Of a stretch of 64,000 nt of DNA, positions 13,575-61,064 are shown piece after piece. The translations under genes were made by a program, and so were the position numbers. Numbering within the stretch: position 1 is the first letter of the stretch; every line of letters starts with the position of its first letter. This DNA comes from Gammaproteobacteria bacterium (lineage in GTDB: Bacteria; Pseudomonadota; Gammaproteobacteria; CBDBNL01; JAAOII01): the NCBI GenBank assembly GCA_965207705.1, contig OZ242292.1, forward strand, positions 1,247,696 to 1,311,695, in the 5' to 3' direction. Below the pieces are notes generated by a model that was given only the letters and a program-made list of their open reading frames with translations, made no database searches and was not told where the DNA came from.

Positions 13575-13632
13575 TATCATTAAGCGGCGGGGATATTGCG
13601 AGCATGCCGATGGTGTGTCGTTAATTTATACA

Positions 13633-13668
13633 TTTTGCGGGCGGAGCATGGCTCCGCCCCTACAGACC
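13633..13668 (+). repeat. REP-like palindromic element, copy 1
   Basis: TTTTGCGGGCGGAGC-ATG-GCTCCGCCCCTACAGACC. It has a perfect 9-bp GC-rich stem (13639-13647 / 13651-13659) and a 3-nt loop. The reverse complement recurs at 29255-29290. Confidence 0.75.
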
Positions 13669-13676
13669 ATCATTCC

Positions 13677-13738
13677 AAGAATTTATACATCATATTTAAG
13701 CGCGACCGCACGGTTGCGTAGCAAGAATTTATACATCA
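13677..13738 (+). repeat. 16-nt direct repeat AAGAATTTATACATCA x2 flanking a small imperfect hairpin
   Basis: Identical copies lie at 13677-13692 and 13723-13738, and a third partial copy (AATTTATACAT) at 13623-13633. GCGACCG-ca-CGGTTGC lies between the two full copies. Confidence 0.7.
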
Positions 13739-13741
13739 AAT

Positions 13742-13781
13742 ACTCCAATATATTACAAATTACTAAAATTGGAGTTTTTTT
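13742..13781 (+). terminator. Candidate Rho-independent terminator of the giant CDS
   Basis: ACTCCAAT (13742-13749) pairs with ATTGGAGT (13768-13775) and runs into a T7 tract (13775-13781). The stem is AT-rich and the loop is long (18 nt), so it is moderate at best. Confidence 0.45.
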
Positions 13782-13807
13782 ACATTTTTACTTATTTTGT
13801 GTATAAT
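13779..13807 (+). promoter_or_regulatory. Sigma70-like promoter, probably for hupB
   Basis: TTTACA (13779-13784), a 17-nt spacer, then TATAAT (13802-13807). A weaker proximal candidate is TTGGCT (13913-13918), 17 nt, TATATT (13936-13941). Confidence 0.45.
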
Positions 13808-13964
13808 AAAAGCAAGCAATAACGGCAATAAATGATTATTTCTTTTAATTTTTATGTGAGATATTACTCATTGTCGCTTGTTTAGTTGAGTACTGCGAGA
13901 ATTCTCTTTATTTTTGGCTTTCTTGTAGTTGATTATTATATTTACCAAAATAGGAGTAATAGAT

Positions 13965-38624: not shown

Positions 38625-38777
38625 AAATATGCAATATTAATGGTATACTTCATATTGCAGAGGTGGTGTGTTCATGTGAAAAGTGCGTATGTTGAATATT
38701 AGATAGTAATGTACTTGCTATAATAATTCAACTAATGTTTATTATATAATTAAATCATGAATATAGATAACGATCTT
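38625..38777 (+). promoter_or_regulatory. Conserved upstream leader of array paralog 2
   Basis: Same block as 32618-32772, with AAATATGCAATATTAATG at 38625-38642 and TATAAT at 38745-38750. Confidence 0.4.
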
Positions 38778-41700: not shown

Positions 41701-44700
41701 CCGCTCTGACTCGTTCAGACGGAGTTACCTCAAACGGTGAAAATATTTTTGAAGTATATGAGGGAGGTGAAGAAGGAACTATTAGGGTGGCAGTTAGAGA
41801 TGATGATATACAGCATGGAGATATTGTTAGCTTGAATATTACTAGCGCTAATCTGCCAGCTGGAGTTATATCTATTGAAAAGGATAAATTATCCCAGTCC
41901 GATGTTGTAAATAACCAGGTAGAGTTTGTAGTCCATATTGCGTCTGGGCTTCTGCGGGATGCTGATATAGGTGAATATATATTAGACCTTTTGGTTTATG
42001 ATGAACTTGGCAAGGCAGAAGACAGTAGAACTATTACTCTAAAAGTTAATAATGTTGTTGAGCAACCGAATATTATTAGTGTGTTGGCGGGAGCAGGTGT
42101 TAGCGCTTCAGCCGATGGCAGCTCTTGGATATTATCAGAAGATGTTGCGGGTTCTTTGAGTATCGTGGTGGAGGATGAAGATTTTGGTAGTGTGCAAAAT
42201 CAAGAGAGTATAAACATTACCATTATGAGTCCTACCCTTCCTGAGAACTTCATAACTGTTCAACAATCAGAGATTAGCCGCCCCGACAGTTCTACAAATA
42301 ACAGAGTCACTTTTAGAATTGAATTTACCGCTCCTGCTAATGAACTAGTTGGAGAACATAATATCACTTTTTCCTTTACTGATACTGATGGAAATACAGC
42401 ATTATATGAAGGGAAGTTTAGAATTGAGAACGTCAATGATGCCCCCGTAATATCCGCTCTGACTAGTTTAGATGGGGTTGTCTCAAGCGGTGAAAATATT
42501 TTTGAAGTATATGAGGGAGGTGAAGAAGGAATTATTAGGGTAAAAGTTAGAGATGCGGATATACAGCATGGAGATATTATTGGCTTGAATATTACTGGCG
42601 CTAATCTACCGACTGGAGTTATATCTATTGAAAAGGATAAATTATCCCAGTCGGATACTATAAATAATCAAGTAGAGTTTATAGTTCGTATTGCATCTGA
42701 GCTTTTGCAGGACAGTGACACAGGTGAATATTCATTGGACTTCTTAGTTTATGATGAATTTGGTAAGGCAGAAGACAGTAGAACTATTACTCTAAAAGTT
42801 ATAAACACTGATGACGCAAGCAGCGCTACCTATTCAGCAATTAGAGGCGGGGTTAGTAAGCTGGGTAGTGTGGATGGTAGCCCGGATACCTTCGCAATTA
42901 GTGAGGGAGAAAGCGGACAAATTAATGTCACTATCTCTGATGAGGATTTAATCCACACTTCACAGCTTGAATATACAATAACTGGCGACTCTATTAGGCA
43001 AGGATTATTAAATATAAGCAGAGTTGAATCCTCATCTTCTGCTGAGGAAAATATATTCCTCATTGATATTGGGAAAAATGGCAACCCGATTGATGATGCG
43101 GATATTGGAAGTTACAACTTGAATCTGCGAGTAACGGATGATGCTGGAACTGTGAATGCGAATTATCCTTTTGTTCTCAAGGTTAATAATGTTGTTGAGC
43201 CGCCAAATATTATTAGCGTGTTGGCGGGGGCAGGTGTTAGCGCCGCAGCCGATGGTAGCTCTTGGACGTTATCAGAAGATGTTGCAGGTTCTTTGAATAT
43301 CGTGGTGGAGGATGAAGATTTTGGTAGTCCACAAAACCAAGAGAGCATAAACATTACCATTACAAGCCCCACTCTTCCTGAGAACTTCATAACTGTTCAA
43401 CAATCAGAGATTAGCCGTCCCGACAGTTCTACGAATAACAGAGTCACTTTTAGAATTGAATTTACCGCTCCTGCTAATCAACTAGTCGGAGAACACAATG
43501 TTACTTTTTCCTTTACTGATACAGATGGAAACAGAGCATTATATGAGGGGGAGTTTAGAATTGAGAACGTTAATGATGCTCCTGTAATATTCTCATTGAC
43601 TCGTTCAGACGGAGTTTTCTCAAGCGGTGAAAATATTTTTGAAGCGTTTGAAGGTGGTGAAGAAGGAACTATTAGGGTAGCAGTTAGAGATGTGGATATA
43701 CAGCATGGAGATATTGTTAGCTTGAATATTACCAGTGCTAATCTGCCGACTGGGGTTATATCCATTGAAAAGGATAAATTATCCCAGTTGGATACTATAA
43801 ATAATCAAGTGGAGTTTGTATTAAATGTAGCGTCTGGGCTTCTGCGGGATGCTGATATAGGTGAATATCTATTAGACCTTTTGGTTTATGATGAATTTGA
43901 CGGAGCAAAAGACAAAAGAACTATAACTCTAAAAATTAAAAACACTGATGACGCAAGCAGCGCTACCTATTCAGCAATTAGAGGCGGGGTTAGTAAGCTG
44001 GACAGTGTGGATGGCGCTTCAGATACATTCGCAATTAGTGAAGGACAAAGCGGGCAGATTGAGGTTATTATCTCTGATGAGGATTTGTCCCGCACTTCGC
44101 AGCTTGAATATACAATAACTAGCGACTCTATTAGGCAAGGGGTTAGGGCAGGCTTATTAAATATAAGCAGAGTTGAATCCTCATCTTCTGCTGAGGAAAA
44201 TATATTCCTCATTGATATCGGCAAGAGCGGCAGTCCGATTGATGATGCGGATATCGGAAGTTACAACTTGAATCTGCGAGTAGAGGATGATGCAGGGACT
44301 GTGAATGCAAACTATCCTTTTGTTCTCAAGGTTAATAATGTTGTTGAGCAGCCCAATATTATTAGCGTGTTGGCAGGAACAGGTATTAGCGCTTCAGCCA
44401 ATAATAACTCTTGGATATTATCAGAAGATGTTGCAGGTTCTTTGAGTATCGTGGTGGAGGATGAAGATTTTGGTAGTGCGCAAAATCAAGAGAGTATAAA
44501 TATCACCATTATGAGCCCCACCCTTCCTCAGAACTTCATAACTGTTCAACAATCAGAGATTAGCCGCCCCGATAGTTCTACGAATAACAGAGCCACTTTT
44601 AGAATTGAATTTACCGCTCCTGCTAATGAACTAGTTGGAGAACATAATATTACTTTTTCCTTTACTGATACAGATGGGAACATAGTTTTATATAAGAGGA

Positions 44701-47700
44701 AGTTTAAAATTGAGAACGTTAATGATGCTCCTGTAATATTCTCATTGACTCGTTCAGACGGAGTTTTCTCAAGCGGTGAAAATATTTTTGAAGTATATGA
44801 GGGAGGTGAAGAAGGAATTATTAGGGTAACAGTTAGAGATGCGGATATACAGCATGGAGATATTGTTGGCTTGAATATTACTGACGCTAATCTGCCGACT
44901 GGAGTTATATCTATTGAAGCGGATAAATTATCCCAGTCCGATGCTATAAATAATCAAGTGGAGTTTGTATTAAATGTAGCGTCTGGGCTTCTGCGGGATA
45001 CTGATATAGGTGAATATCTATTAGACCTTTTGGTTTATGATGAATTTGGCGGGGCAGAGGACACAAGAACTATTACTCTAAAAGTTAATAATGTTGTTGA
45101 GCAGCCCAATATTATTAGTGTGTTGGCGGGAGCAGGTGTTAGCGCTTCAGCCGATGGTAGCTCTTGGATATTATCAGAAGATGTTGCGGGTTCTTTGAGT
45201 ATCGTGGTGGAGGATGAGGACTTAGAAAGCCCACAAAACCAAGAGAGTATAAACATTACTATTACAAGCCCCACTCTGTCTGAGAACTTCATAACTGTTC
45301 AACAATCAGAGATTAGCCGTCCCGATAGTTCTACGAATAACAGAGTCACTTTTAGAATTGAATTTACCGCTCCTGCTAATCAACTAGTTGGAGAACATAA
45401 TGTTACTTTTTCCTTTACTGATACTACTGGGAACATAGTTTTATATAAGAGGGAGTTTAAAATTGAGAACGTTAATGATGCTCCCGTAATATCCGCCATC
45501 ACTAGTTTAGACGGGGTTGTCTCAATAGGTGGAGATGTTTTTGAAGTATTTGAGGGAGGCGATAATGGGGCTATTAAAGTAATTGTAAATGATGCGGATA
45601 TACAACATGGAGATGTTGTTGGCTTGAATATTACTGGCGCTAATCTGCCGACTGGAGTTATATCTATTGAAGCGAATAAATTATCCCAGTCGGATGCTAT
45701 AAATAACCAAGTAGAGTTTATAGTTCGTATTGCCTCTGAGCTTTTGCAGGACAGTGACACAGGTGAATATTCATTGGACTTCTTAGTTTATGATGAACTT
45801 GGCAAGGCAGAAGACAGTAGAACGATTACTCTAAAAGTTATAAACATTGATGATGCAAGCAGCGCTACCTATTCAGCAATTAGCGGCGGGGTTAGTAAGC
45901 TGGACAGTGTGGATGATAGCCCAGATATATTCGCAATTAGTGAGGGGCAAAGCGGGCAGATTAAGATAGCAATCTCTGATGAAGATCTAATCCACAGCTC
46001 GCAACTTGAATATACAATAACTGGCGACTCTATTAGGCAAGGGATTAGGGTAGGATTATTAAACATAACCAGGGTTGAACCCTCTTCTTCTGCCGAGGAA
46101 CATATATTCCTCATTGATATCGGCAAGAGCGGCAGTCCAATTGATGATGCGGATATCGGAAGTTACAACTTGAATCTACGAGTAGAGAATGATGCTGGAA
46201 CTGTGAATGCGAATTATCCTTTTATCCTTAAGGTTAATAATGTTGTTGAGCAGCCGAATATTATTAGCGTGTTGGCGGGAGCAGGTGTTAGCGCTTCAGC
46301 CGATGGCAGCTCTTGGACATTATCAGAAGATGTTGCGGGTTCTTTGAGTATCGTGGTGGAGGATGAAGATTTTGGTAGTCCACAAAACCAAGAGAGTATA
46401 AACATTACTATTATGAGCCCCACTCTGCCTGAGAACTTCATAACTGTTCCACAATCAGAGATTAGCCGCCCCGATAGTTCTACGAATAACAGAGTCACTT
46501 TTAGAATTGAATTTACCGCTCCTGCTAATCAACTAGTTGGAGAACATAATATTACTTTTTCCTTTACTGATACTACGGGGAACATAGTTTTATATAAGAG
46601 GGAGTTTAGAATTGAGAACGTCAACGATGTTCCTGAGATATCCATGATGGATTCTGCTCGCGGAGTTACTTCAAACGGTGAAAATATTTTTGAAGTATAT
46701 GAGGGAGGTGAAGAAGGAATTATTAGGGTAAAAGTTAGAGATGTAGATATACAGCATGGAGATATTGTTAGCTTAAATCTTATCAGTGCCGATTTGCCTG
46801 GCATTATATCTATTGAGGAGGATAAATTATCCCAGTCGGATGCTATGAATAATCAAGTGGAGTTTGTATTAAATGTAGCGTCTGGTCTTCTGCGGGATGC
46901 TGATATAGGCGAGCATCAGTTTCGTTTTTTAGTGCATGATGAATTTGGTGGGATAGATGGCAGCGGGAATTTTACTCTGAATGTCAAAAATACCGATGAC
47001 ACAAGCAGCATCAATTATTTAGCAATTAGCGGAAGGATTAATAAGCTGAGTAATGCGGATGGCGTCCCAGATACCTTCGCAATTAGTGAGGGGCAAAGCG
47101 GGCAAATTCAAGTTATAATCTCTGATGAGGATTTAATTCACACTTCGCAGCTTGAATATACAATAACTAGCGACTCTATTAGGCAAGGGATTAGGGAAGG
47201 ATTATTAAACATAACCAGAGTTGAATCCTTGTCTTCTGCTGAGGAACATATATTTCTCATTGATGTCGGTAAGAGTGGCGGTCCGATTGATGATGCGGAC
47301 ATTGGAAATTACAACTTGAATCTGCGCATATTTGATGTTAGCGCAGATAGGAGAGTAGACGCCCTTTATCCTTTTGTGTTGGAGATAAACAATGTGCCTG
47401 AACCGACTGCTATTATTAATGTGCAGGCGGGACAGGGAGCTGTAGCAGGAACAGGAACCAATTATTTTGTGCTTATAGAGGAGATTTTAGCATCCCTTGA
47501 CATTATAGTTATGGATGAAGACCTTGTAAATCCGCTTGCTCAAGAGAACATAACAATGGAAACTATACCTAGCGATTTACCGAATGACTTACTGCTTACT
47601 AAAAGTTTATATGTTACCCGTCCTGATACGGTTGGCGGAAATCAGGCAACGTTTACCCTGGAAATTGCTGCTCCACGCAACGAAGATGCGCGGGACGATA

Positions 47701-50700
47701 ATTACACAATCCCCTTCATAATAAGTGGCGCAGGAGGCAAATCATTAGTGGGCGAGATTAGCATTAGAATTGAGAACGTCAACGATACGCCTGTAATATC
47801 TGCCCTGACTCACTCAGGCGGAGTTGGCAGGGCAGCTCCCGCAGATGAGAATACCTTTATAGTGTCCGAGGGTGGAGTTAATGGAGCTATTACAGTAACG
47901 GTTGAGGATCCTGATATACAGCATGGAGATACAGTCAGCTTAGACATAATTAATGATGCGCTATTAGGTGACTCTGCATTTATTGATAAATATTTTTCAG
48001 TTGAATCAAGTATAGCCGGGACCAACCAAGTAGAGTTTACAATTCATATTGCTTCTGGACTTATGCAAGAAATTGATATAGGCGAATATCATTTTCAATT
48101 GTCGGTTTACGATAATTTTGGCGGCTCTGCTACTCGCGACCTCATTGTTATAGTGGAAGACACCGATGACTTAACCACTATTTCTAATTTCGGCTGGACG
48201 GGTAATTTGACGAGTATTAGTCCGGCGCCGAGCAACGAACGCGACCTATTTATAATTTATGAAGGGCAAAGCGGACAAATTGAATTCACATTTTCTGATG
48301 AGGATTTAGCCCTCACTCCGTTGGTTGTATCTAACATAACAGGCGACCCTATAGATTCGCAAATTATAAACGCGACTATTAGAACAAAACCATCATCGCC
48401 TGATGAAAGAATATTAACAATTAATATTGGAAACAACTCAAGCGGAACTCAGAAAATTGATGATATGCATATTGGTACTTATGAACTTAGCTTAAATATT
48501 TCCAGTTCTGCTGGAGAAGTTGCCATTAACTATCCATTTACTTTACAGATTATTAATGTTGAGGAGCAACCGCGAATTATTAAAATATTGCCTAGCTTTG
48601 GATTGAGTAGCGGACCTATTGCCAATTCCTTTATATTGACACAAAATATAGCGACAACTTTTATAATTGTGGTGGAGGATGAAGATTTTGCCAATCCTCA
48701 AAACCAAGAGAATATTATAATGACTTCCTCTCATCCCACCGACCCTAATCATCCATTTTTAACTCTGGTGTCTTATGTTAGTCCGCAGATTAATCTGCCA
48801 GACACAAGGGGAGGCAAGCGCGCTACCTTTGTAGCCAAGATTGCCGCGCCGTCAAATGATTTTGTGGGCGAGCATGCTCTATCCATAACTACTATTGATT
48901 CTTCCGCTCGCACTGCCAATTTAGATTTAAATCTTACTATTCTAAATGCCAATGATGCTCCGAGGATTATTAATATAACAAGTTCGGGTTCTGTTAGGCG
49001 CAGCAGTGTGGATAATTTCGTTGTTGCTGAGGGAGCAAGCCCTAATGGAGGCATTGACGTCATAGTTGAAGATGTAGATTTTCTTTTTGGTGATAAAGTT
49101 AGTTTGGCTGTTGCCAGCGCCACTCTTAACACTAAGTTTATATCCGTTGCCAAAGCGCATATAGATGAATCGGATGCCGACCCTAACCACCAAGTAATAT
49201 TTAATATAGATATTCTTTCCGAATCCTTGAATGATGCCGAAGTAGGAACTCATATCTTGGAAATAAACGCAACAGATGCTGAGGGAGTAGTCGCTACACG
49301 CCAAGTTAATTTAGTTGTTGAGAATGTTAATGACGCTCCTGAAATTGTTTCAATTACTTATTCAGAGAGCATTAGCAAGAACCTTAAAGATGCAGGTAAT
49401 ACAGGTGATGAATATACATATAATTTGAATGAGGGGGACAGCGGGGTTTTATATATTAAGATTATGGATGAAGATTTAATTCATTCGCACGAGAATATAA
49501 CAGTCAGCTGGACTAACCCTCTTACTCGTGAGTTATTGTCATTTGACAAAACATCATTTAGCTCCACGGATGTGCTTGAGGATGGGACAGTTAATTTTAT
49601 TTTGCGGCTGGGGCAAGACGCTGACTTTGATAATATTCATGTAGGTCCCCACTTTATATTTTTTTCAATATCTGATAGCACTGGCGCGGTGGTTAACGCA
49701 GGCGGTGAGCTAGCGAGATCAAGAATAATTATTAATATTGTTAATGTCCAGGAACGTCCCTTCTTTCCACAGATAGACCATAATATAGTTGTATTTGAAC
49801 AATCTGGAGGAGCTGAATTGTCAGCTGGGACAGTCATAGCAACTATCGGGCAGGCATACTGTTCAGCAGTAGGTTCAACATCTGGTTGCGCGTCTCCTGC
49901 GCCAGTTCTCGAGGCAAACGACCCAGATCCTGGTGATACGATAAGATTATCTTATGAACTTCAATCTATTGGCACAGAAAATTTTTATCTAGACGGTTTG
50001 AAACTCAAAAACCGCCACCCTATTAGAGTGGGTGAGAAAGAAAGTGTTATTATACATGTTGTAGATCCTTATAATAATAGGGAATTGCTAGAGGGGTATA
50101 TTGTTGTGCATGTTAAAAGATTAAATAATCTCAATCAAGATTCTGATGGTGATGGAGTTCGCGACCCTTATGATGGCGCTCCCGGCAACCCTGCTGCGCA
50201 AACCATGGGCAGTGGAACACATGCTGACCCGTATCTCATCCATAATATTTATCAACTGCAGGCAATAGCTGGAGTTGACCATCAAGGGAATAGTTTGCAG
50301 GCATCTGAGTTTACGGGGAACTCTTATTTGTATGGGAATGGATTGTTGCGACAGCTTAGCAGTCACTATCGTTTGGTAAATGATGTAAGCGCTTCCATCA
50401 CCTCAACTTGGAATCGCGGCGGCGGATTTATACCTATAGGGACAGGTGTTTGTAATAGTAGTGACGTACGATGCGATACTGCAACGGCAGCCCGTTTGGT
50501 GGATGGAACCCCAGTGCGCTTTAGCGGAACATTTGATGGATCGAATTTTGAAATTAGCGGCTTAACCATCAATAGGCAATCAAGCTATCTTGGACTATTT
50601 GGTGAAGCAGGAGTTGGCAGTGTTATTGCTAATCTAGAATTAACTTCGGCAAATATTATAAATTCTGCCACTCGCTCAAATCCAAGCGATGCAGTCAAAT

Positions 50701-51836
50701 TTAGCCATGGAGGGGTATTAGTGGGACAAATGTTAGGCGGCACCATAGATAATGTTCGTGTTACTGGAAGGTTCATGGGAATTGATTATAAATATGCAGG
50801 CGGTGTGGCGGGGTCGCTTAGTTCATCGGCGAATGGAGCAATACCTGGCATAATAACAAACTCTATGGCGGACGTTGACATTACTGCCAATGGCATTGAA
50901 TTTGGTGGATTAGTGGGTGTGTTGGGGCGGAACTCTCTCATACAAGCATCTAACGCCAAAGGGAATGTAATGTCCGCTGTAAATGATAATAATGCGCTTC
51001 TTGCTAATTATGTAGGCGGTTTAGTCGGAATATCTCGTGGCTATATATTTGCTTCTTATGCTACGGGTAATGTGCGCGGCTATTATAATGTGGGCGGGTT
51101 GGTTGGAAACGTGCTCGGAGGAGCAACAACTGCTAACTTTGCTACTGGTGATGTTGAAGGAATCATACAAGTTGGTGGATTAGTTGGTGAGATGTTAGGG
51201 GGTACTCACAGATATTTGTATTATAGCGGACAGCTTATTCGTTCTTCTTATACCTCTGCCACACCAGAATTTATAGGAGGTATAATAGGAAAATTATGGG
51301 CAAGAACAACTATTTACAGTGTTATTAATATGCGCTCCAGCAATCCTTATGACACACCTAAAGGAGGGTTAGTATTTGGTCTCCTTGATCTAACTGTAGT
51401 TCAAGATATCCCTAATATTCATAATGCCTATTCAATTTACGTCCTTGACAATTCTTTGGGTTACATTGCACATAAAAGTTATGGAACAGCACAGGGCGGA
51501 CCGCTTTCTCTTCTTGGGGACAACGCCGCTAGTATTAAAGCAATACCTATGATTCAGTTGAAATATTGCTCTAACGACGCACTTTTGCAGGGGTTGCTTT
51601 GCACTGGTTTATTCAATAATAATTTTTGGAGGGATTTACGTGTCTCGTCATTAGGTTCAAGCTATAATGTTGATTGGTCCATTCCCTCTGATAATTATCC
51701 CGCCCTTAAAGTGCAACGAGTTACTGGGACGGGAGAGCTTGATGATGCCAGTATTCTTCCTTCGCCCGAAGAGCAAAGATGTCATATTGAACCAGAATAT
51801 ACTCACCCCACCTACTGCCCAACAACCATCCGCTAA
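38778..51836 (+). CDS. Giant cadherin-like/GLUG lipoprotein, array paralog 2 (seven central cassettes)
   Basis: The open frame runs 38757-51836. I prefer ATG 38778 (MKITYMKSRLKSRF..) because it is the start shared with paralogs 1 and 3. The upstream ATG 38757 is in frame here only because of a 1-nt difference from paralog 1 (CTTATG vs CTTTATG). The head is at 50226-51833. Confidence 0.88.
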   Translation: MKITYMKSRLKSRFIIVFLSLIAVGCAGSGNNNGSGQSPTPLTPTPPTCADNPDVCSVPYLTALYGGGVFYFNEATEINQTVKISEGEKQTFYAIIHDSDISSGESINVTINSTIKLDTDIIDSLNGYVSPPLKMDPETDPESIPSALENYTNAEGYEIFNFTLGEDLLLDDKVVGEHEILVVSIDARGLEGSSKIVVVIENVNDTPVISSLERSGGVTASSENIFEVYEGGEEGIIRVKVRDDDIQHGDIVSLNLISADLPGIISIEEDKLSQSDAVNNQVEFVLNVASGLLRDADIGEHQFRFLVHDEFGGIDGSGNFTLNVKNTDDASSATYSAIRGGVSKLDSVDGSPDIFAISEGQSGQIEVIISDEDLSRTSQLEYTITSDSIRQGVRAGLLNISRVESSSSAEEQIFLIDIGKNGSPIDDADIGIYNLNLRVADDDRAVNANYPFVLKVNNVVEQPNIISVLAGEGVSASADNNSWILSEDVVGSLSIVVEDEDFGSAQNQESINITITSPILPENFITVPQSEISRPDSSTNNRATFRIEFTAPANELVGEHNITFSFTDTDGNIVLYKREFRIENVNDAPVISALTSLDGVVSIGGDVFEVYEGGEEGIIRVKVRDVDIQHGDIVSLNITSANLPTGVISIEKDKLSQLDTINNQVEFVLNVASGLLRDADIGEHLLNFLVYDEFGGAEDTRTITLKIKNTDDASSATYSAIRGGVSKLDSVDGSPDTFAISEGQSGQIEVIISDEDLSRTSQLEYTITSDSIRRGVRAGLLNISRVESSSSAEENIFLIDIGKSGSPIDDADIGSYNLNLRVENDAGTVNANYPFVLTVNNVVEQPNIISVLAGTGVSASADNNSWILSEDVVGSLSIVVEDEDFGSAQNQESINITITSPTLPENFITVPQSEISRPDSSTNNRVTFRIEFTAPANQLVGEHNITFSFTDTDGNTALYEREFRIENVNDAPVISALTRSDGVTSNGENIFEVYEGGEEGTIRVAVRDDDIQHGDIVSLNITSANLPAGVISIEKDKLSQSDVVNNQVEFVVHIASGLLRDADIGEYILDLLVYDELGKAEDSRTITLKVNNVVEQPNIISVLAGAGVSASADGSSWILSEDVAGSLSIVVEDEDFGSVQNQESINITIMSPTLPENFITVQQSEISRPDSSTNNRVTFRIEFTAPANELVGEHNITFSFTDTDGNTALYEGKFRIENVNDAPVISALTSLDGVVSSGENIFEVYEGGEEGIIRVKVRDADIQHGDIIGLNITGANLPTGVISIEKDKLSQSDTINNQVEFIVRIASELLQDSDTGEYSLDFLVYDEFGKAEDSRTITLKVINTDDASSATYSAIRGGVSKLGSVDGSPDTFAISEGESGQINVTISDEDLIHTSQLEYTITGDSIRQGLLNISRVESSSSAEENIFLIDIGKNGNPIDDADIGSYNLNLRVTDDAGTVNANYPFVLKVNNVVEPPNIISVLAGAGVSAAADGSSWTLSEDVAGSLNIVVEDEDFGSPQNQESINITITSPTLPENFITVQQSEISRPDSSTNNRVTFRIEFTAPANQLVGEHNVTFSFTDTDGNRALYEGEFRIENVNDAPVIFSLTRSDGVFSSGENIFEAFEGGEEGTIRVAVRDVDIQHGDIVSLNITSANLPTGVISIEKDKLSQLDTINNQVEFVLNVASGLLRDADIGEYLLDLLVYDEFDGAKDKRTITLKIKNTDDASSATYSAIRGGVSKLDSVDGASDTFAISEGQSGQIEVIISDEDLSRTSQLEYTITSDSIRQGVRAGLLNISRVESSSSAEENIFLIDIGKSGSPIDDADIGSYNLNLRVEDDAGTVNANYPFVLKVNNVVEQPNIISVLAGTGISASANNNSWILSEDVAGSLSIVVEDEDFGSAQNQESINITIMSPTLPQNFITVQQSEISRPDSSTNNRATFRIEFTAPANELVGEHNITFSFTDTDGNIVLYKRKFKIENVNDAPVIFSLTRSDGVFSSGENIFEVYEGGEEGIIRVTVRDADIQHGDIVGLNITDANLPTGVISIEADKLSQSDAINNQVEFVLNVASGLLRDTDIGEYLLDLLVYDEFGGAEDTRTITLKVNNVVEQPNIISVLAGAGVSASADGSSWILSEDVAGSLSIVVEDEDLESPQNQESINITITSPTLSENFITVQQSEISRPDSSTNNRVTFRIEFTAPANQLVGEHNVTFSFTDTTGNIVLYKREFKIENVNDAPVISAITSLDGVVSIGGDVFEVFEGGDNGAIKVIVNDADIQHGDVVGLNITGANLPTGVISIEANKLSQSDAINNQVEFIVRIASELLQDSDTGEYSLDFLVYDELGKAEDSRTITLKVINIDDASSATYSAISGGVSKLDSVDDSPDIFAISEGQSGQIKIAISDEDLIHSSQLEYTITGDSIRQGIRVGLLNITRVEPSSSAEEHIFLIDIGKSGSPIDDADIGSYNLNLRVENDAGTVNANYPFILKVNNVVEQPNIISVLAGAGVSASADGSSWTLSEDVAGSLSIVVEDEDFGSPQNQESINITIMSPTLPENFITVPQSEISRPDSSTNNRVTFRIEFTAPANQLVGEHNITFSFTDTTGNIVLYKREFRIENVNDVPEISMMDSARGVTSNGENIFEVYEGGEEGIIRVKVRDVDIQHGDIVSLNLISADLPGIISIEEDKLSQSDAMNNQVEFVLNVASGLLRDADIGEHQFRFLVHDEFGGIDGSGNFTLNVKNTDDTSSINYLAISGRINKLSNADGVPDTFAISEGQSGQIQVIISDEDLIHTSQLEYTITSDSIRQGIREGLLNITRVESLSSAEEHIFLIDVGKSGGPIDDADIGNYNLNLRIFDVSADRRVDALYPFVLEINNVPEPTAIINVQAGQGAVAGTGTNYFVLIEEILASLDIIVMDEDLVNPLAQENITMETIPSDLPNDLLLTKSLYVTRPDTVGGNQATFTLEIAAPRNEDARDDNYTIPFIISGAGGKSLVGEISIRIENVNDTPVISALTHSGGVGRAAPADENTFIVSEGGVNGAITVTVEDPDIQHGDTVSLDIINDALLGDSAFIDKYFSVESSIAGTNQVEFTIHIASGLMQEIDIGEYHFQLSVYDNFGGSATRDLIVIVEDTDDLTTISNFGWTGNLTSISPAPSNERDLFIIYEGQSGQIEFTFSDEDLALTPLVVSNITGDPIDSQIINATIRTKPSSPDERILTINIGNNSSGTQKIDDMHIGTYELSLNISSSAGEVAINYPFTLQIINVEEQPRIIKILPSFGLSSGPIANSFILTQNIATTFIIVVEDEDFANPQNQENIIMTSSHPTDPNHPFLTLVSYVSPQINLPDTRGGKRATFVAKIAAPSNDFVGEHALSITTIDSSARTANLDLNLTILNANDAPRIINITSSGSVRRSSVDNFVVAEGASPNGGIDVIVEDVDFLFGDKVSLAVASATLNTKFISVAKAHIDESDADPNHQVIFNIDILSESLNDAEVGTHILEINATDAEGVVATRQVNLVVENVNDAPEIVSITYSESISKNLKDAGNTGDEYTYNLNEGDSGVLYIKIMDEDLIHSHENITVSWTNPLTRELLSFDKTSFSSTDVLEDGTVNFILRLGQDADFDNIHVGPHFIFFSISDSTGAVVNAGGELARSRIIINIVNVQERPFFPQIDHNIVVFEQSGGAELSAGTVIATIGQAYCSAVGSTSGCASPAPVLEANDPDPGDTIRLSYELQSIGTENFYLDGLKLKNRHPIRVGEKESVIIHVVDPYNNRELLEGYIVVHVKRLNNLNQDSDGDGVRDPYDGAPGNPAAQTMGSGTHADPYLIHNIYQLQAIAGVDHQGNSLQASEFTGNSYLYGNGLLRQLSSHYRLVNDVSASITSTWNRGGGFIPIGTGVCNSSDVRCDTATAARLVDGTPVRFSGTFDGSNFEISGLTINRQSSYLGLFGEAGVGSVIANLELTSANIINSATRSNPSDAVKFSHGGVLVGQMLGGTIDNVRVTGRFMGIDYKYAGGVAGSLSSSANGAIPGIITNSMADVDITANGIEFGGLVGVLGRNSLIQASNAKGNVMSAVNDNNALLANYVGGLVGISRGYIFASYATGNVRGYYNVGGLVGNVLGGATTANFATGDVEGIIQVGGLVGEMLGGTHRYLYYSGQLIRSSYTSATPEFIGGIIGKLWARTTIYSVINMRSSNPYDTPKGGLVFGLLDLTVVQDIPNIHNAYSIYVLDNSLGYIAHKSYGTAQGGPLSLLGDNAASIKAIPMIQLKYCSNDALLQGLLCTGLFNNNFWRDLRVSSLGSSYNVDWSIPSDNYPALKVQRVTGTGELDDASILPSPEEQRCHIEPEYTHPTYCPTTIR
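39378..46613 (+). repeat. Cassette array in paralog 2: seven units of 1146, 1149, 753, 1137, 1149, 753 and 1149 nt
   Basis: Unit lengths are the distances between successive ENVND landmarks (GAG at 39378, 40524, 41673, 42426, 43563, 44712, 45465, 46614). The ~1.15-kb units are domain types A-B-C and the 753-nt units are A-C. Confidence 0.85.
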
Positions 51837-51984: not shown

Positions 51985-54900
51985 ATGAAAATTACATATA
52001 TGAAAAGTAGATTAAAGAGTAGATTTATTATTATTTTCTTGTCTCTGATCGCGGTGGGGTGCGGTGGATCAAATAATAATACAAGCGGTCAGTCCCCTAC
52101 TCCCCTTACCCCTACTCCCCTTACATGCGCCGATGATTTCCAGGTATGTTCGCCGCCCCATCTTACGGCTTTATACGGCGGCGATGTGTTCTACTTTAAC
52201 GAAGCTACGGGGATTAACCAAACTGTCAAAATTAGCGAAGGAGAGAAGCAAACCTTCTATGCTATTATCCATGATTCTGATATATCATCTGGAGAATCTA
52301 TTAATGTTACCATCAATAGTACAACTATTGATTTTGCGGATAGTTTATATGGCTATGTTTCTCCACCACTTAAGATGGATCCCGAGACGGATCCCGAGAG
52401 TATTCCATCCGCGCTTGAAAACTACACAAATACTGAAGGATATGAGATTTTTAACTTTACCTTAGGGGAAGACCTTTTATTAGATGATAAAGTGGTCGGA
52501 GAACATGAGATTTCAGTTGTCTCTATTGATACCCGGGGATTGGAGGGTTCTTCTAAGATAGTAGTTGTGATAGAGAACGTCAACGATACGCCTGTAATAT
52601 CCTCCTTGGAACGTTCAGGCGGAGTTACCGCAAGCAGTGAAAATATTTTTGAAGTATATGAGGGAGGTGAAGAAAGAATTATTAGGGTAAAAGTTAGAGA
52701 TGATGATATACAGCACGGAGATATTGTTGGCTTGAATATTACCAGTGCTAATCTACCGACTGGAGTTATATCCATTGAAAAGGATAAATTATCCCAGTCG
52801 GATACTGTAAATAATCAAGTAGAGTTTATAGTCCATATTGCGTCCGGGCTTCTGCGGGATGCTGATATAGGCGAACATTTGTTGAACTTCTTAGTTTATG
52901 ATGAACTTGGCAAGGCAGAAGACAGTAGAACTATTACTCTAAAAGTTAATAATGTTGCTGAGCAGCCCAATATTATTAGCGTGTTGGCGGGAGCAGGTGT
53001 TAGCGCTTCAGCCGATGGTAGCTCTTGGATATTATCAGAAGATGTTGCAGGTTCTTTGAGTATCGTGGTGGAGGATGAGGATTTCGGTAGTACGGAAAAT
53101 CAAGAGAGTTTGCGCATTGACATTAGGAGTTCTACCCTGCCTGAGAACTTCATAACTGTTCAACAATCAGAGATTAGCAGCCCTGATAGTTCTACGAATA
53201 ACAGAGTCACTTTTAGAATTGAATTTACCGCTCCTGCTAATCAACTAGTTGGAGAACATAATATCACTTTTTCCTTTACTGATACAGATGGAAATACAGC
53301 ATTATATGAGGGGGAGTTTAGAATTGAGAATGTTAATGATGCTCCTGTAATATCCGCCCTGACTAGTTTAGATGGGGTTGTCTCAATAGGTGAAAATATT
53401 TTTGAAGCGTTTGAAGGTGGTGAAGAAGGAACTATTAGGGTGGCAGTTAGAGATGATGATATACCGCATGGAGATATTGTTGGCTTGAATATTACCAGCG
53501 CTAATCTACCAGCTGGAGTTATATCTATTGAAAAGGATAAATTATCCCAGTCCGATACTATAAATAATCAAGTGGAGTTTATAGTCCATATTGCGTCTGG
53601 GCTTCTGCGGGATGCTGATATAGGCGAACATTTGTTGAACTTCTTGGTTTATGATGAATTTGGTAAGGCAGAGGACACAAGAACTATAACTCTAAAAGTT
53701 AATAATGTTGTTGAGCAACCGAATATTATTAGCGTGTTGGCGGGAGCAGGTGTTAGCGCTTCAGCCGATGGTAGCTCTTGGATATTATCAGAAGATGTTG
53801 CGGGTTCTTTGAGTATCGTGGTGGAGGATGAAGATTTCGGTAGTACGGAAAATCAAGAGAGTTTGCGCATTGACATTAGGAGTTCTACCCTTCCTGAGAA
53901 CTTCATAACTGTTCAACAATCAGAGATTAGCAGCCCTGATAGCTCTACAAATAATAGAGTCACTTTTAGAATTGAATTTACCGCTCCTGCTAATCAACTA
54001 GTTGGAGAACATAATATCACTTTTTCCTTTACTGATACAGATGAAAATAGAGCGCTATATGAGGGGGAGTTTAGAATTGAGAATGTTAATGATGCTCCTG
54101 TAATATCCGCCCTGACTAGTTTAGATGGGGTTGTCTCAAGCGGTGAAAATATTTTTGAAGTATATGAGGGAGGTGAAGAAGGAATTATTAGGGTAACAGT
54201 TAGAGATGAGGATATACCGCATGGAGATATTGTTAGCTTGAATATTACTAGCGCTAATCTGCCGACTGGAGTTATATCTATTGAAAAGGATAAATTATCC
54301 CAGTCGGATACTGTAAATAATCAAGTGGAGTTTGTATTAAATGTAGCGTCTGGGCTTCTGCGGGATGCTGATATAGGCGAACATTTGTTGAACTTCTTGG
54401 TTTATGATGAATTTGGCGGGGCAGAGGACACAAGAACTATTACTCTAAAAGTTAATAATGTTGTTGAGCAACCGAATATTATTAGCGTGTTGGCGGGAGC
54501 AGGTGTTAGCGCTTCAGCCAATAATAACTCTTGGACATTATCAGAAGATGTTGCAGGTTCTTTGAGTATCGTAGTGGAGGATGAAGATCTCGGCAGCCCG
54601 CAAAATCAAGAGAGTATAAACATCACCATTACAAGCCCCACTCTTCCTGAGAACTTCATAACTGTTCAACAATCAGAGATTAGCCGCCCCGACAGTTCTA
54701 CGAATAACAGAGTCACTTTTAGAATTGAATTTACCGCTCCTGCTAATGAACTAGTTGGAGAACATAATATTACTTTTTCCTTTACTGATACAGATGGGAA
54801 CATAGTTTTATATAAGAGGGAGTTTAGAATTGAGAACGTCAACGATGTTCCTGAGATATCCATGATGGATTCTGCTCGCGGAGTTACCTCAAGCGGTGAA

Positions 54901-57900
54901 AATATTTTTGAAGCATTTGAAGGTGGTGAAGAAGGAATTATTAGGGTAAAAGTTAGAGATGATGATATACCGCATGGAGATATTATTGGCTTGAATATTA
55001 CCAGCGCTAATCTGCCAGCTGGGATTATATCCATTGAAAAGGATAAATTATCCCAGTCCGATGTTGTAAATAACCAGGTAGAGTTTGTAGTCCATATTGC
55101 GTCTGGGCTTCTGCGGGATGCTGATATAGGTGAATATCTATTAGACCTTTTGGTTTATGATGAACTTGGCAAGGCAGAAGACAGTAGAACTATTACTCTA
55201 AAAGTTAATAATGTTGTTGAGCAGCCAAATATTATTAGCGTGTTGGCGGGAGAAGGTGTTAGCGCTTCAACCGATGGCAGCTCTTGGATATTATCAGAAG
55301 ATGTTGCGGGTTCTTTGAGTATCGTGGTGGAGGATGAAGATTTCGGTAGTACGGAAAACCAAGAGAGTATAAACATTACTATTATGAGTTCCACTCTGTC
55401 TGAGAACTTCATAACTGTTCAACAATCAGAGATTAGCCGCCCCGACAGTTCTACGAATAACAGAGCCACTTTTAGAATTGAATTTACCGCTCCTGCTAAT
55501 GAACTAGTTGGAGAACATAATATTACTTTTTCCTTTACTGATACAGATGGGAACATAGTTTTATATAAGAGGGAGTTTAGAATTGAGAACGTCAATGATG
55601 CTCCTGAGGTATATATGATGGATTCTGCTCGCGGAGTTACCTCGATTGGTGAAAATATTTTTGAAGTATATGAGGGAGGTGAAGATGGAATTATTAGGGT
55701 AAAAGTTAGAGATGTGGATATACAGCATGGAGATATTGTTAGCTTAAATCTTATCAGCGCCGATTTGCCTGGCATTATATCTATTGAGGAGGATAAATTA
55801 TCCCAGTCGGATGCTATGAATAATCAAGTGGAGTTTGTATTAAATGTAGCGTCTGGTCTTCTGCGGGATGCTGATATAGGCGAGCATCAGTTTCGTTTTT
55901 TAGTGCATGATGAATTTGGTGGGATAGACGGCAGCGGGAACTTTACTCTGAATGTCAAAAATACCGATGACACAAGCAGCATCAATTATTCAGCAATTAG
56001 CGGAAGGATTAATAAGCTGAGTAATGCGGATGGCGTCCCAGATACCTTCGCAATTAGTGAGGGGCAAAGCGGGCAAATTCAAGTTATAATCTCTGATGAG
56101 GATTTAATCCACTCTTCGCAGCTTGAATATACAATAACTGGCAACTCTATTAGGCAAGGGATTAGGGAAGGATTATTAAACATAACCAGAGTTGAATCCT
56201 CATCTTCTGCTGAGGAACATATATTTCTCATTGATATCGGCAAGAGCGGCAGTCCAATTGATGATGCGGATATTGGAAATTACAACTTGAATCTGCGCAT
56301 ATTTGATGTTGGCGCAGATAGGAGAGTAGACGCCCTTTATCCTTTTGTGTTGGAGATAAACAATGTGCCTGAACCGACTGCTATTATTAATGTGCAGGCG
56401 GGACAGGGAGCTGTAGCAGGAACAGGAACTAATTATTTTGTGCTTACAGAGAAAATTTTAGCATCCTTTGACATTATAGTTATGGATGAAGACCTTGTAA
56501 ATCCGCTTGCTCAAGAGAACATAACAATGGAAACTATACCTAGCGATTTACCGAATGACTTACTGCTTACTAAAAGTTTATATGTTACCCGTCCTGATAC
56601 GGTTGGCGGAAATCAGGCAACCTTTACCCTGGGAATTGCTGCTCCACGCAACGAAGATGCGCGGGACGATAATTACACAATCCCCTTCATAATAAGTGGC
56701 GCAGGAGGCAGATCATTAGTGGGCGAAATTAGCATTAAAATTGAGAACGTCAATGATGCGCCTGTAATATCTGCCCTGACTCACTCAGGCGGAGTTAGCA
56801 GGACCGGCCTGCCTGTAGAGAGTAATACTTTTATAGTGTCCGAGGGCGGAGTTAATGGATCTATTACAGTAACGGTTGAGGATCCTGATATACAGCATGG
56901 AGACACAGTAGGTTTAGAGATAAGCAATGATGCGTTATTAGGGGACGCTACATTTATTGATAAATATTTTTCAGTTGAAGAAAACATAGCAGCGCCCAAT
57001 CAGGTAGAGTTTGCAATCCATATTGCTTCTGAGCTTATGCAGGATACTGATATAGGCGAGCATCATTTTCAATTAGTGGTTTTTGATGATTTTGGCGGCT
57101 CTGCTACTCGCGACTTCATTGTTATAGTGGAAGACACCGATGACTTAACCACTATTTCTAATTTCGGCTGGACGGGTAATTTGACGAAGGTTGCTCCAAT
57201 ATCTAGTCCGGCGCCGAGCAACGGAGGAGACCTGTTTACAATTTATGAAGGACAAAGCGGACAAATTGAGTTCACATTTTCTGATGAAGATTTATCTCTC
57301 GCTTCGTTAGTTGTATCTAACATAACAGGCGACCCTATAGATTCGCAAATTATAAACGCTACTATTAGAACAAAACCATCATCGCCTGATGAAAGAATAT
57401 TGACAATTAATATTGGAAACAACTCAAGCGGAACTCAGAAAATTGATGATGTCCATATCGGCACTTATGAACTTAGCTTAAATATTTCCAGTTCTGCTGG
57501 AGAAGTTGCCATTAGCTATCCATTCACTTTACAGATTATTAATGTTGAGGAGCAACCGCGTATTATTAAAATATTGCCTAGCTTTGGATTGAGTAGCGGA
57601 CCTGCTGCCAATTCCTTTATATTGACACAAAATGTAGCGACAACTTTTATAATTGTGGTGGAGGATGAAGATTTTGCCAGCCCGCAAAACCAAGAGAATA
57701 TTATAATGACTTCCTCTCATCCCACCGACTCTAATTATCCATTTTTAACTCTGGTGTCTTATGAGAGTCCGCAGATTAATCTTCCAGACATAGCGGGAGG
57801 CAAGCGCGCCACCTTTATAGCCAAGATTGCCGCACCGTCAAATGATTTTGTGGGCGAGCATACTCTATCCATAACTGCTATTGATTCTTCAGTCAGGACT

Positions 57901-60963: not shown

Positions 60964-61064
60964 AAATATGCAATATTAATGATACAATTACAGAACCTTT
61001 GATGGTAATGCAATGACAATGCATTTATTCAGCTGTCAATTGGTAGGAGTATATGGTAATATTT
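60964..61064 (+). promoter_or_regulatory. Upstream region of array paralog 4 (keeps only the AAATATGCAATATTAATGATAC motif)
   Basis: The motif is at 60964-60981. The sequence downstream is unrelated to the leader of paralogs 1-3. Confidence 0.3.

What the first reader, a model, noticed from the sequence alone, without database searches (positions are those of the whole stretch)
49340..50160. Segment-wise discordant similarity among paralogs (mosaicism indicating gene conversion)
In the ~0.8-kb stretch before the DxDGDG motif that precedes the head, paralog 1 (36103-36890) and paralog 3 (58334-59130) encode clearly similar sequence (..ISKTR.G.FD.YQLNEGGAGFL...NKQFFTS.DA.DGTVNL.L.LGQGADFDD.HI..). 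Paralog 2 (49346-50160) is strongly divergent there (..ISKNLKDAGNTGDEYTYNLNEGDSGVLYI...DKTSFSSTDVLEDGTVNFILRLGQDADFDNIHV..). Immediately downstream the pattern flips. The head domains of paralogs 1 and 2 are nearly identical, while paralog 3 is the outlier. Different segments therefore have different histories, as expected from patchy gene conversion between array members.
Basis: seen in the sequence. Interest (0 to 1): 0.62.

Follow-up and report, generated by a model that had tools for sequence, protein, structure and literature searches.

The report
Recombination mosaics in giant adhesin genes
Five neighbouring genes for giant surface proteins in a small-genome, uncultured gammaproteobacterium keep swapping short stretches of DNA, so the outer tip of each protein is a patchwork; this is a well-known way for bacteria to vary their surface, seen here in an unstudied protein family.

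Summary
In p2 49250-50100, p2 is only 60-76% identical in DNA to p1 and p3, which are 85-92% alike. From about 50535 to the stop, p1 and p2 are 95-100% alike and p3 is the outlier at 58-78%.

The ranking flips many times along the 3' 4.65 kb. Among 303 quartet-informative sites there are 50 switches, against 190±8 in shuffles. AU tests reject each segment's tree on the other segment (p from 3e-5 to 1e-118). GARD-like breakpoints fall at 49347 and 50244.

Rate acceleration does not explain this. p2's divergent segment groups with gene q3 of a sister species and shares indels with it. p3's head also groups with q3's head. All four combinations of two segment types and two head types exist.

Conversion is recent and within the genome:
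- Paralog tracts are 99.6-100% identical, while their orthologues in a strain with 97% identical housekeeping genes are 91-95%.
- A near-clonal strain differs from p3 in a 290-bp patch where G000 p3 equals G000 p4.
- An independent assembly reproduces both 3' ends.

RecA is present. No reverse transcriptase or inverted repeats were found. This is patchy gene conversion, a known mechanism, in a new family.

The parts
32773..38580 (+). p1, 1935-aa lipoprotein gene: lipobox leader, beta-rich repeat stalk, neck, GLUG head. First member of the tandem array.
   Evidence: ORF list, translation; positional orthologue r1 follows LpxD, a GLUG giant, TrpE and Pif1 in a related genome.
38757..51836 (+). 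p2, 4359-aa paralog that carries the segment of the finding.
   Evidence: The Pfam GLUG motif scores 24.2 bits on its tail, against a cut-off of 20.5.
51985..60828 (+). p3, 2947-aa paralog.
   Evidence: The last 1,726 residues are identical in an independent assembly of a near-clonal strain.
61053..64000 (+). 5' part of p4. The gene runs to window-relative 74150 (4365 aa). p5 follows at 74401-77643.
   Evidence: Whole-genome ORF scan; blastn of array pieces.
49347..50243 (+). Segment A of p2, the stretch of the finding: the last beta-rich module(s) before the neck. It is the 'beta' sequence type, with elevated dN/dS.
   Evidence: GARD-like breakpoints at 49347 and 50244. Clade (p2,q3) has 98/98 support. 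Indels are shared with q3. dN/dS is 0.7-1.0, against 0.2-0.5 in the stalk.
36103..36890 (+). Segment A of p1, 'alpha' type.
   Evidence: Clade (p1,p3) has 99/99 support in segment A. DNA identity to p3 is 84-93%.
58334..59130 (+). Segment A of p3, 'alpha' type.
49185..49334 (+). Conserved anchor upstream of segment A, ending in VENVNDAP. It marks the 5' border of the exchanged region.
   Evidence: Nucleotide diversity among p1-p4 is 0.02 in most 30-nt windows and 0.12 in one. The breakpoint at 49347 lies just after it.
50133..50330 (+). Conserved neck (NQDSDGDGVRDPYDGAP..., thrombospondin-type-3-like Asp-rich motif) between segment A and the head. Likely a homology anchor for exchange.
   Evidence: Diversity is 0.02-0.08 among p1-p4. 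TSP_3 hits are weak and below threshold, E 0.02-0.09. Breakpoints fall at 50244 and 50514.
50535..51833 (+). Head of p2 (GLUG beta-helix-like), type I, nearly identical to p1's head at 37279-38577.
   Evidence: Three runs of 57, 9 and 48 consecutive p1=p2 | p3=p4 informative sites. Clade (p1,p2) has 100/100 support. dS is 0.045-0.11.
59503..60825 (+). Head of p3, type II, orthologous to the head of q3 in the sister species.
   Evidence: Clade (p3,q3) has 100/99 support. Indels are shared. dS of 0.265 is near the species-level 0.15-0.22.
47535..48113 (+). Recent conversion tract: p2 equals p4 (window-relative 69786-70364), 579 bp with 1 mismatch.
   Evidence: p<0.0002. dS is 0 over 128 codons. 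The orthologue in the r genome is only 91.6% identical.
45405..47183 (+). Longest near-identical inter-paralog tract: p2 equals p4 (67668-69446), 1779 bp at 99.6%.
   Evidence: The orthologous stretch in the r genome is 91.2% identical.
35480..35732 (+). Conversion tract p1 = p3 (57713-57965), 253 bp with 1 mismatch.
   Evidence: p<0.0002.
54606..54895 (+). Patch in p3 that is 100% identical to p4 63698-63987 but differs at 38 of 290 positions from the same gene in near-clonal strain w.
   Evidence: Sequence on both sides is identical or nearly so between the two strains.
63698..63987 (+). Partner copy in p4 of the 290-bp patch.
   Evidence: 290/290 identical.

Best explanation
The window holds the first four of five tandem, same-strand genes (p1-p5) for giant lipoproteins. 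Each has a lipobox leader, a long stalk of beta-rich cadherin/Ig-like repeats, a conserved Asp-rich neck and a GLUG-motif head. RecA-type homologous recombination between misaligned or aligned copies repeatedly copies short stretches (about 100 bp to 1.8 kb) from one paralog into another. This is non-reciprocal gene conversion.

In the stalk this homogenises the copies within a genome, which is concerted evolution. At the distal end it has a different effect. There, two variable modules (segment A and the head) lie between conserved anchors: the VENVNDAP block, an MDEDLIHSHE island and the neck. Exchange at the anchors re-assorts old, strongly diverged module types.

p2 has a 'beta' segment A of the type found in q3 of the sister species, joined to a type-I head recently copied from or shared with p1. 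p3 has an 'alpha' segment A, like p1, joined to a type-II head orthologous to q3's.

Shown: the mosaic, its statistical support, its reproduction in an independent assembly, events younger than strain splits, and the presence of recA and recO.

Inferred: that the process is gene conversion in the strict non-reciprocal sense, that the anchors are preferred exchange points, and that the outcome (a varied adhesin tip) is selected for interaction with a host or partner surface.
For: - Segment-wise identity flips among all pairs.
- Among 303 quartet-informative sites there are 50 switches, against 190±8 in 10,000 shuffles. The longest run is 57, against a maximum of 17.
- A GENECONV-like test gives p<0.0002 for 5 of 6 pairs.
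- Segment trees: A gives (p2,q3) 98/98 and (p1,p3) 99/99. The head gives (p1,p2) 100/100 and (p3,q3) 100/99. AU tests reject the other segment's clades, with p from 2.8e-5 to 1e-118.
- GARD-like breakpoints fall at 49347, 50244, 50514, 50967 and 51390, with a total dAICc of 1359.
- p2 and q3 share indels in segment A; p3 and q3 share indels in the head.
- Module-level four-gamete test: p1 = alpha+I, p2 = beta+I, p3 = alpha+II, q3 = beta+II.
- r1 of a strain with 97% identical housekeeping genes alternates beta, alpha, beta, alpha in pieces of about 100-350 bp inside segment A.
- Paralog tracts within G000 are 99.6-100% identical, while their orthologues are 91-95% and housekeeping genes 97.2-97.5%.
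- The 290-bp p3 patch equals p4 but differs at 38 sites from near-clonal strain w.
- An independent assembly reproduces the 3' 4.7 kb of p2 and the 3' 5 kb of p3 with about 10 and 1 differences.
- dS: alpha versus beta 0.63; p2-q3 0.37; species-level 0.15-0.22; p1-p2 head 0.045.
- RecA (470 bits) and RecO are present.
Against: - Within-population variation and event frequency are therefore unknown.
- For the single A/head junction of p2, one unequal crossover would give the same picture as a long conversion tract.
- p2's beta segment has no donor in this genome, so its presence could be retention or import from another strain.
- The GARD-like AICc gain also rewards free branch lengths, not only changed topologies.
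- Several clades in the AU tests were named after seeing the trees.
- Function is untested. The structure model was poor (pLDDT 44.7).
- dN/dS of 0.7-1.0 does not by itself show positive selection, and recombination confounds such estimates.
Confidence: 0.85

Rival explanations
1. Unequal crossing-over or segmental duplication within the tandem array, a reciprocal event with one breakpoint, created chimeric genes. Under this view p2's beta segment A became joined to a type-I head by one crossover in the neck, not by a conversion tract.
For: - Gene lengths differ greatly between strains: p2 is 4359 aa, w2 4238 and r2 3990, and the s genome's genes are 1530-1685 aa. Unequal crossovers among repeats therefore do occur.
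- The p1=p2 similarity runs from 50535 to the stop codon as one block.
Against: - The near-identity ends near the stop codon. The two downstream intergenic regions differ by a ~55-bp indel and many mismatches, so no duplicated unit spans the gene boundary.
- Most other patches have two breakpoints within 100-600 bp, which crossovers do not produce.
Confidence: 0.2
2. The divergent pieces were imported by homologous recombination with DNA from other strains or species (allelic replacement after horizontal transfer), not copied between members of the same array.
For: - The beta type of segment A is shared with q3 of the sister species and with r1 of another strain.
- No donor for it exists in G000.
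- Earlier notes on other GLUG arrays in this genome also suggest exchange between co-occurring strains.
Against: - dS between p2 and q3 in segment A (0.30-0.37) is above the species-level 0.15-0.22, so this is not a recent import from a G001-like genome.
- The youngest tracts have their exact partners inside the same genome.
Confidence: 0.15
3. There was no recombination. p2 evolved faster in segment A and p3 faster in the head (lineage-specific positive or relaxed selection), so that similarity rankings flip on one underlying tree.
For: - dN/dS is raised in segment A (0.7-1.0) and in the distal head (0.6-0.8) relative to the stalk.
- With three sequences and no outgroup, a ranking flip alone does not prove recombination.
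Against: - Shared-derived sites form long incompatible runs.
- p2's segment clusters with q3 and r1, and p3's head with q3, with shared indels.
- dS is also raised, 0.63 against 0.13.
- Tracts 100% identical between different pairs cannot come from rate variation.
Confidence: 0.03
4. The mosaic is an assembly or polishing artefact of a repeat-rich locus.
For: - The locus is highly repetitive.
- Reads could not be inspected.
- The internal repeat parts of p2 and p4 differ by 5-13% between two near-clonal assemblies. This could partly reflect collapsed or mis-registered repeats.
Against: - An independent assembly from another sample (L019) reproduces the 3' ends of p2 and p3 almost base for base.
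- The same module types recur in different combinations in at least five other assemblies.
- The genome is a single 2.06-Mb contig without N.
Confidence: 0.02

Closest known systems
Segmental gene conversion in bacterial surface-antigen families (Neisseria pilE/pilS, Borrelia vlsE, Anaplasma msp2), as reviewed in PMC4534519
   Same: Short, variably sized tracts are exchanged at conserved islands inside or beside hypervariable regions. This gives mosaic variable domains and a large combinatorial repertoire (PMC4534519). Tract sizes are comparable: up to 423 bp for vlsE, against about 100-600 bp for most patches here.
   Different: Those systems have one expression site and promoterless silent cassettes, with one-way transfer. 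Here all five members are complete ORFs with start codon and lipobox leader. No silent fragments were found, and exchange appears to go among full-length genes. Switching frequency is unknown.
Tandem arrays of full-length, promoter-bearing surface protein genes (Ehrlichia p28/map1 family, Mycoplasma gallisepticum vlhA), as described in PMC4534519
   Same: Tandemly arranged, mostly complete genes with their own intergenic spacers encode variable outer-surface proteins.
   Different: The protein families are unrelated: small porin-like or haemagglutinin proteins there, 1,000-4,400-aa repeat-stalk lipoproteins with a GLUG head here. The trinucleotide-repeat promoter switch of vlhA was not examined here.
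Bartonella badA island (PMC8859334)
   Same: A giant modular adhesin gene with a head and a repetitive stalk sits among related copies. Long-read genomes show strain-to-strain reshuffling of homologous domain arrays, attributed to recombination (abstract).
   Different: BadA is a trimeric autotransporter flanked by pseudogenes. Here the proteins are lipoproteins with no autotransporter anchor, all copies are intact, and the tip modules, not only the stalk repeats, are re-assorted.
GLUG-motif proteins (Pfam PF07581)
   Same: The head carries repeated GGLVG units, and p2's tail passes the Pfam cut-off. Distant homologues named GLUG motif-containing proteins are widespread. An earlier follow-up in this scan matched the head to PDB 3N6Z.
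   Different: That is a statement about the fold of the head, not about the recombination. The combination of segment A, neck and head at >45% identity was found only in this genus.

Membership tests
Mosaic paralogs produced by intragenomic gene conversion (concerted evolution with patchy tracts) | Adjacent segments of the same genes support incompatible trees | tested here: met
   Quartet-site runs, AU tests and a GARD-like scan.
Mosaic paralogs produced by intragenomic gene conversion (concerted evolution with patchy tracts) | Short tracts with a breakpoint on both sides, not single crossovers | tested here: met
   r1 alternates types in pieces of about 100-350 bp. The 290-bp p3 patch sits between sequence that is identical or nearly so in strain w. 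Significant inner fragments occur in 5 of 6 pairs.
Mosaic paralogs produced by intragenomic gene conversion (concerted evolution with patchy tracts) | Paralog tracts within a genome are more alike than the orthologues between close genomes | tested here: met
   Identity is 99.6-100% within G000, against 91-95% to the r genome, whose housekeeping genes are 97.2-97.5% identical. The stalk tree groups all p copies apart from all q copies, with modest support of 89/65.
Mosaic paralogs produced by intragenomic gene conversion (concerted evolution with patchy tracts) | Homologous recombination machinery is present and required | tested here: inconclusive
   recA is intact (470 bits) and recO is present. 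A RecB-like gene scores below the equivalog cut-off. Dependence on them cannot be tested with these tools.
Programmed antigenic variation with an expression site and silent cassettes (pilE/pilS, vlsE, msp2 type) | One expressed copy plus promoterless or truncated donor cassettes | tested here: not met
   All five array members are complete ORFs with start codon and lipobox leader. blastn of segment A and the head finds only the full-length paralogs.
Programmed antigenic variation with an expression site and silent cassettes (pilE/pilS, vlsE, msp2 type) | High-frequency switching within one population | not testable with these tools
Diversity-generating retroelement target | A reverse transcriptase and a template repeat matching the variable region | tested here: not met
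   No RVT_1 match in the genome. The only similar sequences are the paralogous segments, at 74-79% identity.
Invertible shufflon or site-specific inversion system | Inverted repeats flanking the exchanged segments | tested here: not met
   No inverted repeat of 25 bp or more in 32000-64000. All genes lie on one strand.
GLUG-motif proteins (Pfam PF07581) | Match to the GLUG model above the gathering score | tested here: met
   p2's tail scores 24.2 bits against a cut-off of 20.5, in 5 stretches. p3's tail scores only 14.7 bits, and whole p1 gave no hit at E<=0.01.
Cadherin-like / bacterial Ig-like repeat proteins | Significant match of the repeats, and of segment A, to a cadherin or Big model | tested here: inconclusive
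   The stalk piece 46002-49100 matches DUF4625 at 29.5 bits (cut-off 27) and Big_13 below its cut-off. Segment A alone has no hit better than E 0.15. Precomputed PF00028 hits exist on homologues. The model is all-beta but of low confidence.

The most novel reading that the evidence does not exclude
The array may be a selected combinatorial diversity system without silent cassettes. A few long-lived types of two tip modules (segment A and the head) would be older than the split of the sister species and kept by balancing selection. They would be continually re-dealt among five full-length giant lipoproteins, using conserved anchors (VENVNDAP, the Asp-rich neck) as exchange points. Each strain of this small-genome, probably host-associated bacterium would then display its own set of adhesin tips. 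The rest of the GLUG repertoire, about 13% of the genome, may behave the same way.
Probability: 0.3. Interest if true: 0.65.

Novelty: new member of a known kind. Interest (0 to 1): 0.45.

Why it matters
Patchy gene conversion among surface-protein paralogs is textbook biology in pathogens. Here it is documented with unusually clean evidence in an uncultured, small-genome gammaproteobacterial genus. That genus devotes about 13% of its DNA to GLUG-head giants.

The evidence comes in three layers:
- old module types shared across species;
- re-assortment between strains;
- events younger than the split between near-clonal strains.

The result points to the distal module and the head as the parts under diversifying pressure, which makes them the likely ligand-binding end. 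It also gives concrete exchange borders. Finally, it warns that gene trees, orthology calls and dN/dS tests on these genes are unreliable unless done segment by segment.

Tried and rejected
- Sequence search of the head against PDB chains: no match at E<=1.
- AlphaFold2 on the p2 tail with a 7-row alignment: pLDDT 44.7. The model was not good enough for a fold search, so none was run.
- Pfam and NCBIfam on segment A: nothing significant.
- BLAST with identity filters failed to list short identical tracts because its HSPs extend into diverged flanks. It was replaced by a k-mer diagonal scan.
- Fetching the whole r genome through its locus: the record is not held, so r2's tail could not be compared.
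- DGR and shufflon explanations were rejected.
- A segmental duplication spanning the p1/p2 and p2/p3 gene boundaries was rejected, because the intergenic regions are not near-identical.
- Two literature searches found no description of this family or locus.
Full report
**Layout**

The window lies in a single-contig genome of 2,057,196 bp with 40.5% G+C and no N. From 32773 onward it holds same-strand genes for giant lipoproteins:
- p1, 32773-38580 (1935 aa);
- p2, 38757-51836 (4359 aa);
- p3, 51985-60828 (2947 aa);
- the start of p4 at 61053.

In the whole genome p4 ends at window-relative 74150 (4365 aa). A shorter p5 follows at 74401-77643, and then come more distant GLUG-motif giants. Upstream lie housekeeping genes, another GLUG giant, trpE and a Pif1-like helicase.

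Each array member has a lipobox leader and a long repetitive stalk with NVNDAP-type repeat borders. The stalk is followed by a last variable module (segment A), a conserved Asp-rich neck and a head with GGLVG units. The head passes the Pfam GLUG cut-off on p2.

**Check of the observation**

A 150-nt sliding window on the aligned last 5 kb gives the following:
- Across p2 49251-50100, identity is 59-84% for p1-p2 and 62-88% for p2-p3, against 84-93% for p1-p3.
- From about 50774 to the stop, identity is 95-100% for p1-p2 and 58-86% for either pair with p3.

I counted sites where exactly two of the three sequences agree. The finding's stretch gives 151 (p1=p3), 30 (p1=p2) and 52 (p2=p3). The head gives 23, 252 and 35. 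The chi-square is 267 (p = 1e-58). A MaxChi scan gives 303, against at most 23 in shuffles.

The flip is not quite immediate. A conserved neck (50133-50330) comes first, then a short piece where p2 and p3 are the closest pair. The p1=p2 signal starts at 50535.

**The mosaic is general**

With p4 added, every pair of genes has its own near-identical tracts at homologous positions:
- p2=p4 over 47535-48113 (579 bp, 1 mismatch) and over 45405-47183 (1779 bp, 99.6%);
- p1=p4 over 34841-35327;
- p1=p3 over 35480-35732;
- p3=p4 over 58954-59312 and 59536-59907.

Of 303 quartet-informative sites in the last 4.65 kb, 146 support 12|34, 93 support 13|24 and 64 support 14|23. They lie in long runs. There are only 50 switches, against 190±8 in 10,000 shuffles, and the longest run is 57, against at most 17. 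A GENECONV-like test on runs of concordant polymorphic sites is significant (p<0.0002) for five of the six pairs.

**Excluding rate variation**

A ranking flip among three sequences could come from unequal rates alone, so I added outgroups.

A sister species of the same genus has a syntenic array, q1-q3, after trpE and the helicase. It is a MAG titled Gammaproteobacteria bacterium, OZ242303.1. Trees on codon alignments give:
- in segment A, (p2,q3) at 98/98 and (p1,p3) at 99/99;
- in the head, (p1,p2) at 100/100, (p3,q3) at 100/99 and p4 with q1/q2 at 100/100;
- in the stalk, all p copies together.

AU tests on segment A reject (p1,p2) with p = 2.8e-5 and (p3,q3) with p = 5.6e-4. On the head they reject (p2,q3) with p = 8e-49 and (p1,p3) with p = 1e-118.

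p2 and q3 share indels in segment A: the NLKD insertion and a four-residue AGGE/ADGS insertion. p3 and q3 share indels in the head.

Call the two segment-A types alpha and beta, and the two head types I and II. All four combinations then exist: p1 alpha+I, p2 beta+I, p3 alpha+II and q3 beta+II. This requires at least one exchange between the two modules.

A greedy GARD-like scan places breakpoints at p2 49347, 50244, 50514, 50967 and 51390 (total dAICc 1359). The first two bracket the finding's coordinates. The gain also includes freed branch lengths, so the AU tests are the cleaner evidence for changed topology.

**Ages**

Synonymous divergence of trpE and the helicase is 0.15-0.22 between this genome and the sister species. 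It is 0.07-0.10 to a closer genome, r. Against that scale:
- The heads of p3/q3 (0.265) and p4/q1 (0.246) are about species-level, consistent with orthology.
- Alpha versus beta in the first half of segment A is 0.63, so the two types are older than the species split.
- The p1/p2 head is 0.045, so it is younger than the split from r.

dN/dS is 0.7-1.0 in segment A and 0.6-0.8 in the distal head. It is 0.2-0.5 in the stalk and about 0.08 in the housekeeping genes.

**Ongoing, patchy and intragenomic exchange**

A protein search found close relatives in several other ENA assemblies.

r1 is the positional orthologue of p1 in a 2.24-Mb genome whose housekeeping genes are 97.2-97.5% identical. Inside segment A it alternates between types:
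- beta at 49305-49400 (93-97% to p2, 47-88% to p1);
- alpha at 49425-49570 (90-98% to p1, 67-93% to p2);
- beta at 49599-49720;
- alpha at 49749-50070.

A block-type matrix over 19 proteins shows further combinations.

The tracts that are 99.6-100% identical between paralogs of G000 are only 91-95% identical to their orthologues in r. They were therefore homogenised after the strains split.

An independent assembly of a near-clonal strain, w (L019, another sample), gives the strongest evidence. Its p3 orthologue is identical over the last 1,726 residues. Its DNA matches the 3' 4.7 kb of p2 with about 10 differences and the 3' 5 kb of p3 with 1 difference. This also rules out an assembly artefact for the finding.

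The few differences in p3 are clustered. One 290-bp patch (54606-54895) has 38 differences from w, yet it is 290/290 identical to p4 63698-63987 in G000. That is a two-breakpoint copy event between array members, younger than the split between the two strains.

**Mechanism**

The exchange borders coincide with the most conserved stretches:
- the VENVNDAP block just before 49347;
- the MDEDLIHSHE island near 49464;
- the neck at 50133-50330.

Homology-dependent recombination is expected to behave this way. recA is intact and recO is present. There is no reverse transcriptase in the genome, and there are no inverted repeats in the array. A DGR or an inversion shufflon is therefore excluded.

The near-identity of the p1 and p2 heads fades at the stop codon, and the downstream spacers differ by an indel and many mismatches. 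This argues against a duplicated unit spanning the gene boundary. A single crossover in the neck still cannot be excluded for that one junction.

p2's beta segment has no donor in this genome. It is either retained from the ancestor or imported. Its dS to q3 argues against a recent import from the sister species.

**Comparison with known systems and verdict**

The process matches segmental gene conversion in bacterial surface-antigen families (PMC4534519) and recombinational reshuffling of a giant adhesin locus (PMC8859334). It differs from the classical expression-site and silent-cassette systems, because all members are complete genes.

The protein family is a GLUG-head lipoprotein. The architecture of segment A, neck and head was found only in this genus. 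An earlier follow-up in this scan linked the head fold to PDB 3N6Z; I confirmed only the Pfam motif.

My own structure model was too poor to use.

This is a new member of a known kind. It is of moderate interest, mainly for people working on symbiont or host-associated surface proteins and for anyone building trees from these genes.

Noticed in passing
whole genome G000 (C1), list: Forty open frames of 1000 aa or more carry at least three GGLxG (GLUG-like) motifs. Together they cover about 265 kb, or 12.9% of a 2.06-Mb genome. All frames of 1000 aa or more cover 20.2%.
   Followed up: partly
window 41991-47076 and 61176-65055 versus L019: Between two otherwise near-identical strains, the internal repeat parts of p2 and p4 differ by 5-13% per 300 bp, and the genes differ in length (p2 4359 aa, w2 4238 aa). 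This suggests repeat-register changes or heavy reshuffling. Assembly error in the 9x contig cannot be excluded.
   Followed up: partly
L019:19057-28340: In strain w the p4 orthologue is called as three ORFs (2472, 383 and 239 aa) instead of one of 4365 aa. This could be a frameshift, pseudogenisation or low-coverage assembly errors.
   Followed up: no
heads of p4 (window-relative 72768-74147) and q1 (L002:~12500-13909): Head orthology does not follow gene order. p4, fourth in the array, pairs with q1, first in the sister array. p3 pairs with q3 and p5 with q4. p4, q1 and P0013 share a 16-residue insertion in the head. The arrays have therefore been rearranged, or heads have moved between positions.
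   Followed up: partly
window-relative 74401-77643 (p5) and L001:14094-18068 (q4): The short last member is the most conserved between species. The (p5,q4) head clade has 99-100% support, and near-identical block types occur in the u and v assemblies. It shows the least sign of exchange with the others.
   Followed up: no
window 32773-60828 versus L018: Array genes are 91-96% identical between G000 and the r genome, while trpE and the helicase next to them are 97.2-97.5% identical. The array evolves faster than its neighbours.
   Followed up: partly
window 52377-52388: A 12-bp insertion (DPET) is present in G000 p3 and at p2 39182 but absent from strain w's p3. This is another small difference whose variant form exists in a neighbouring paralog.
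   Followed up: partly
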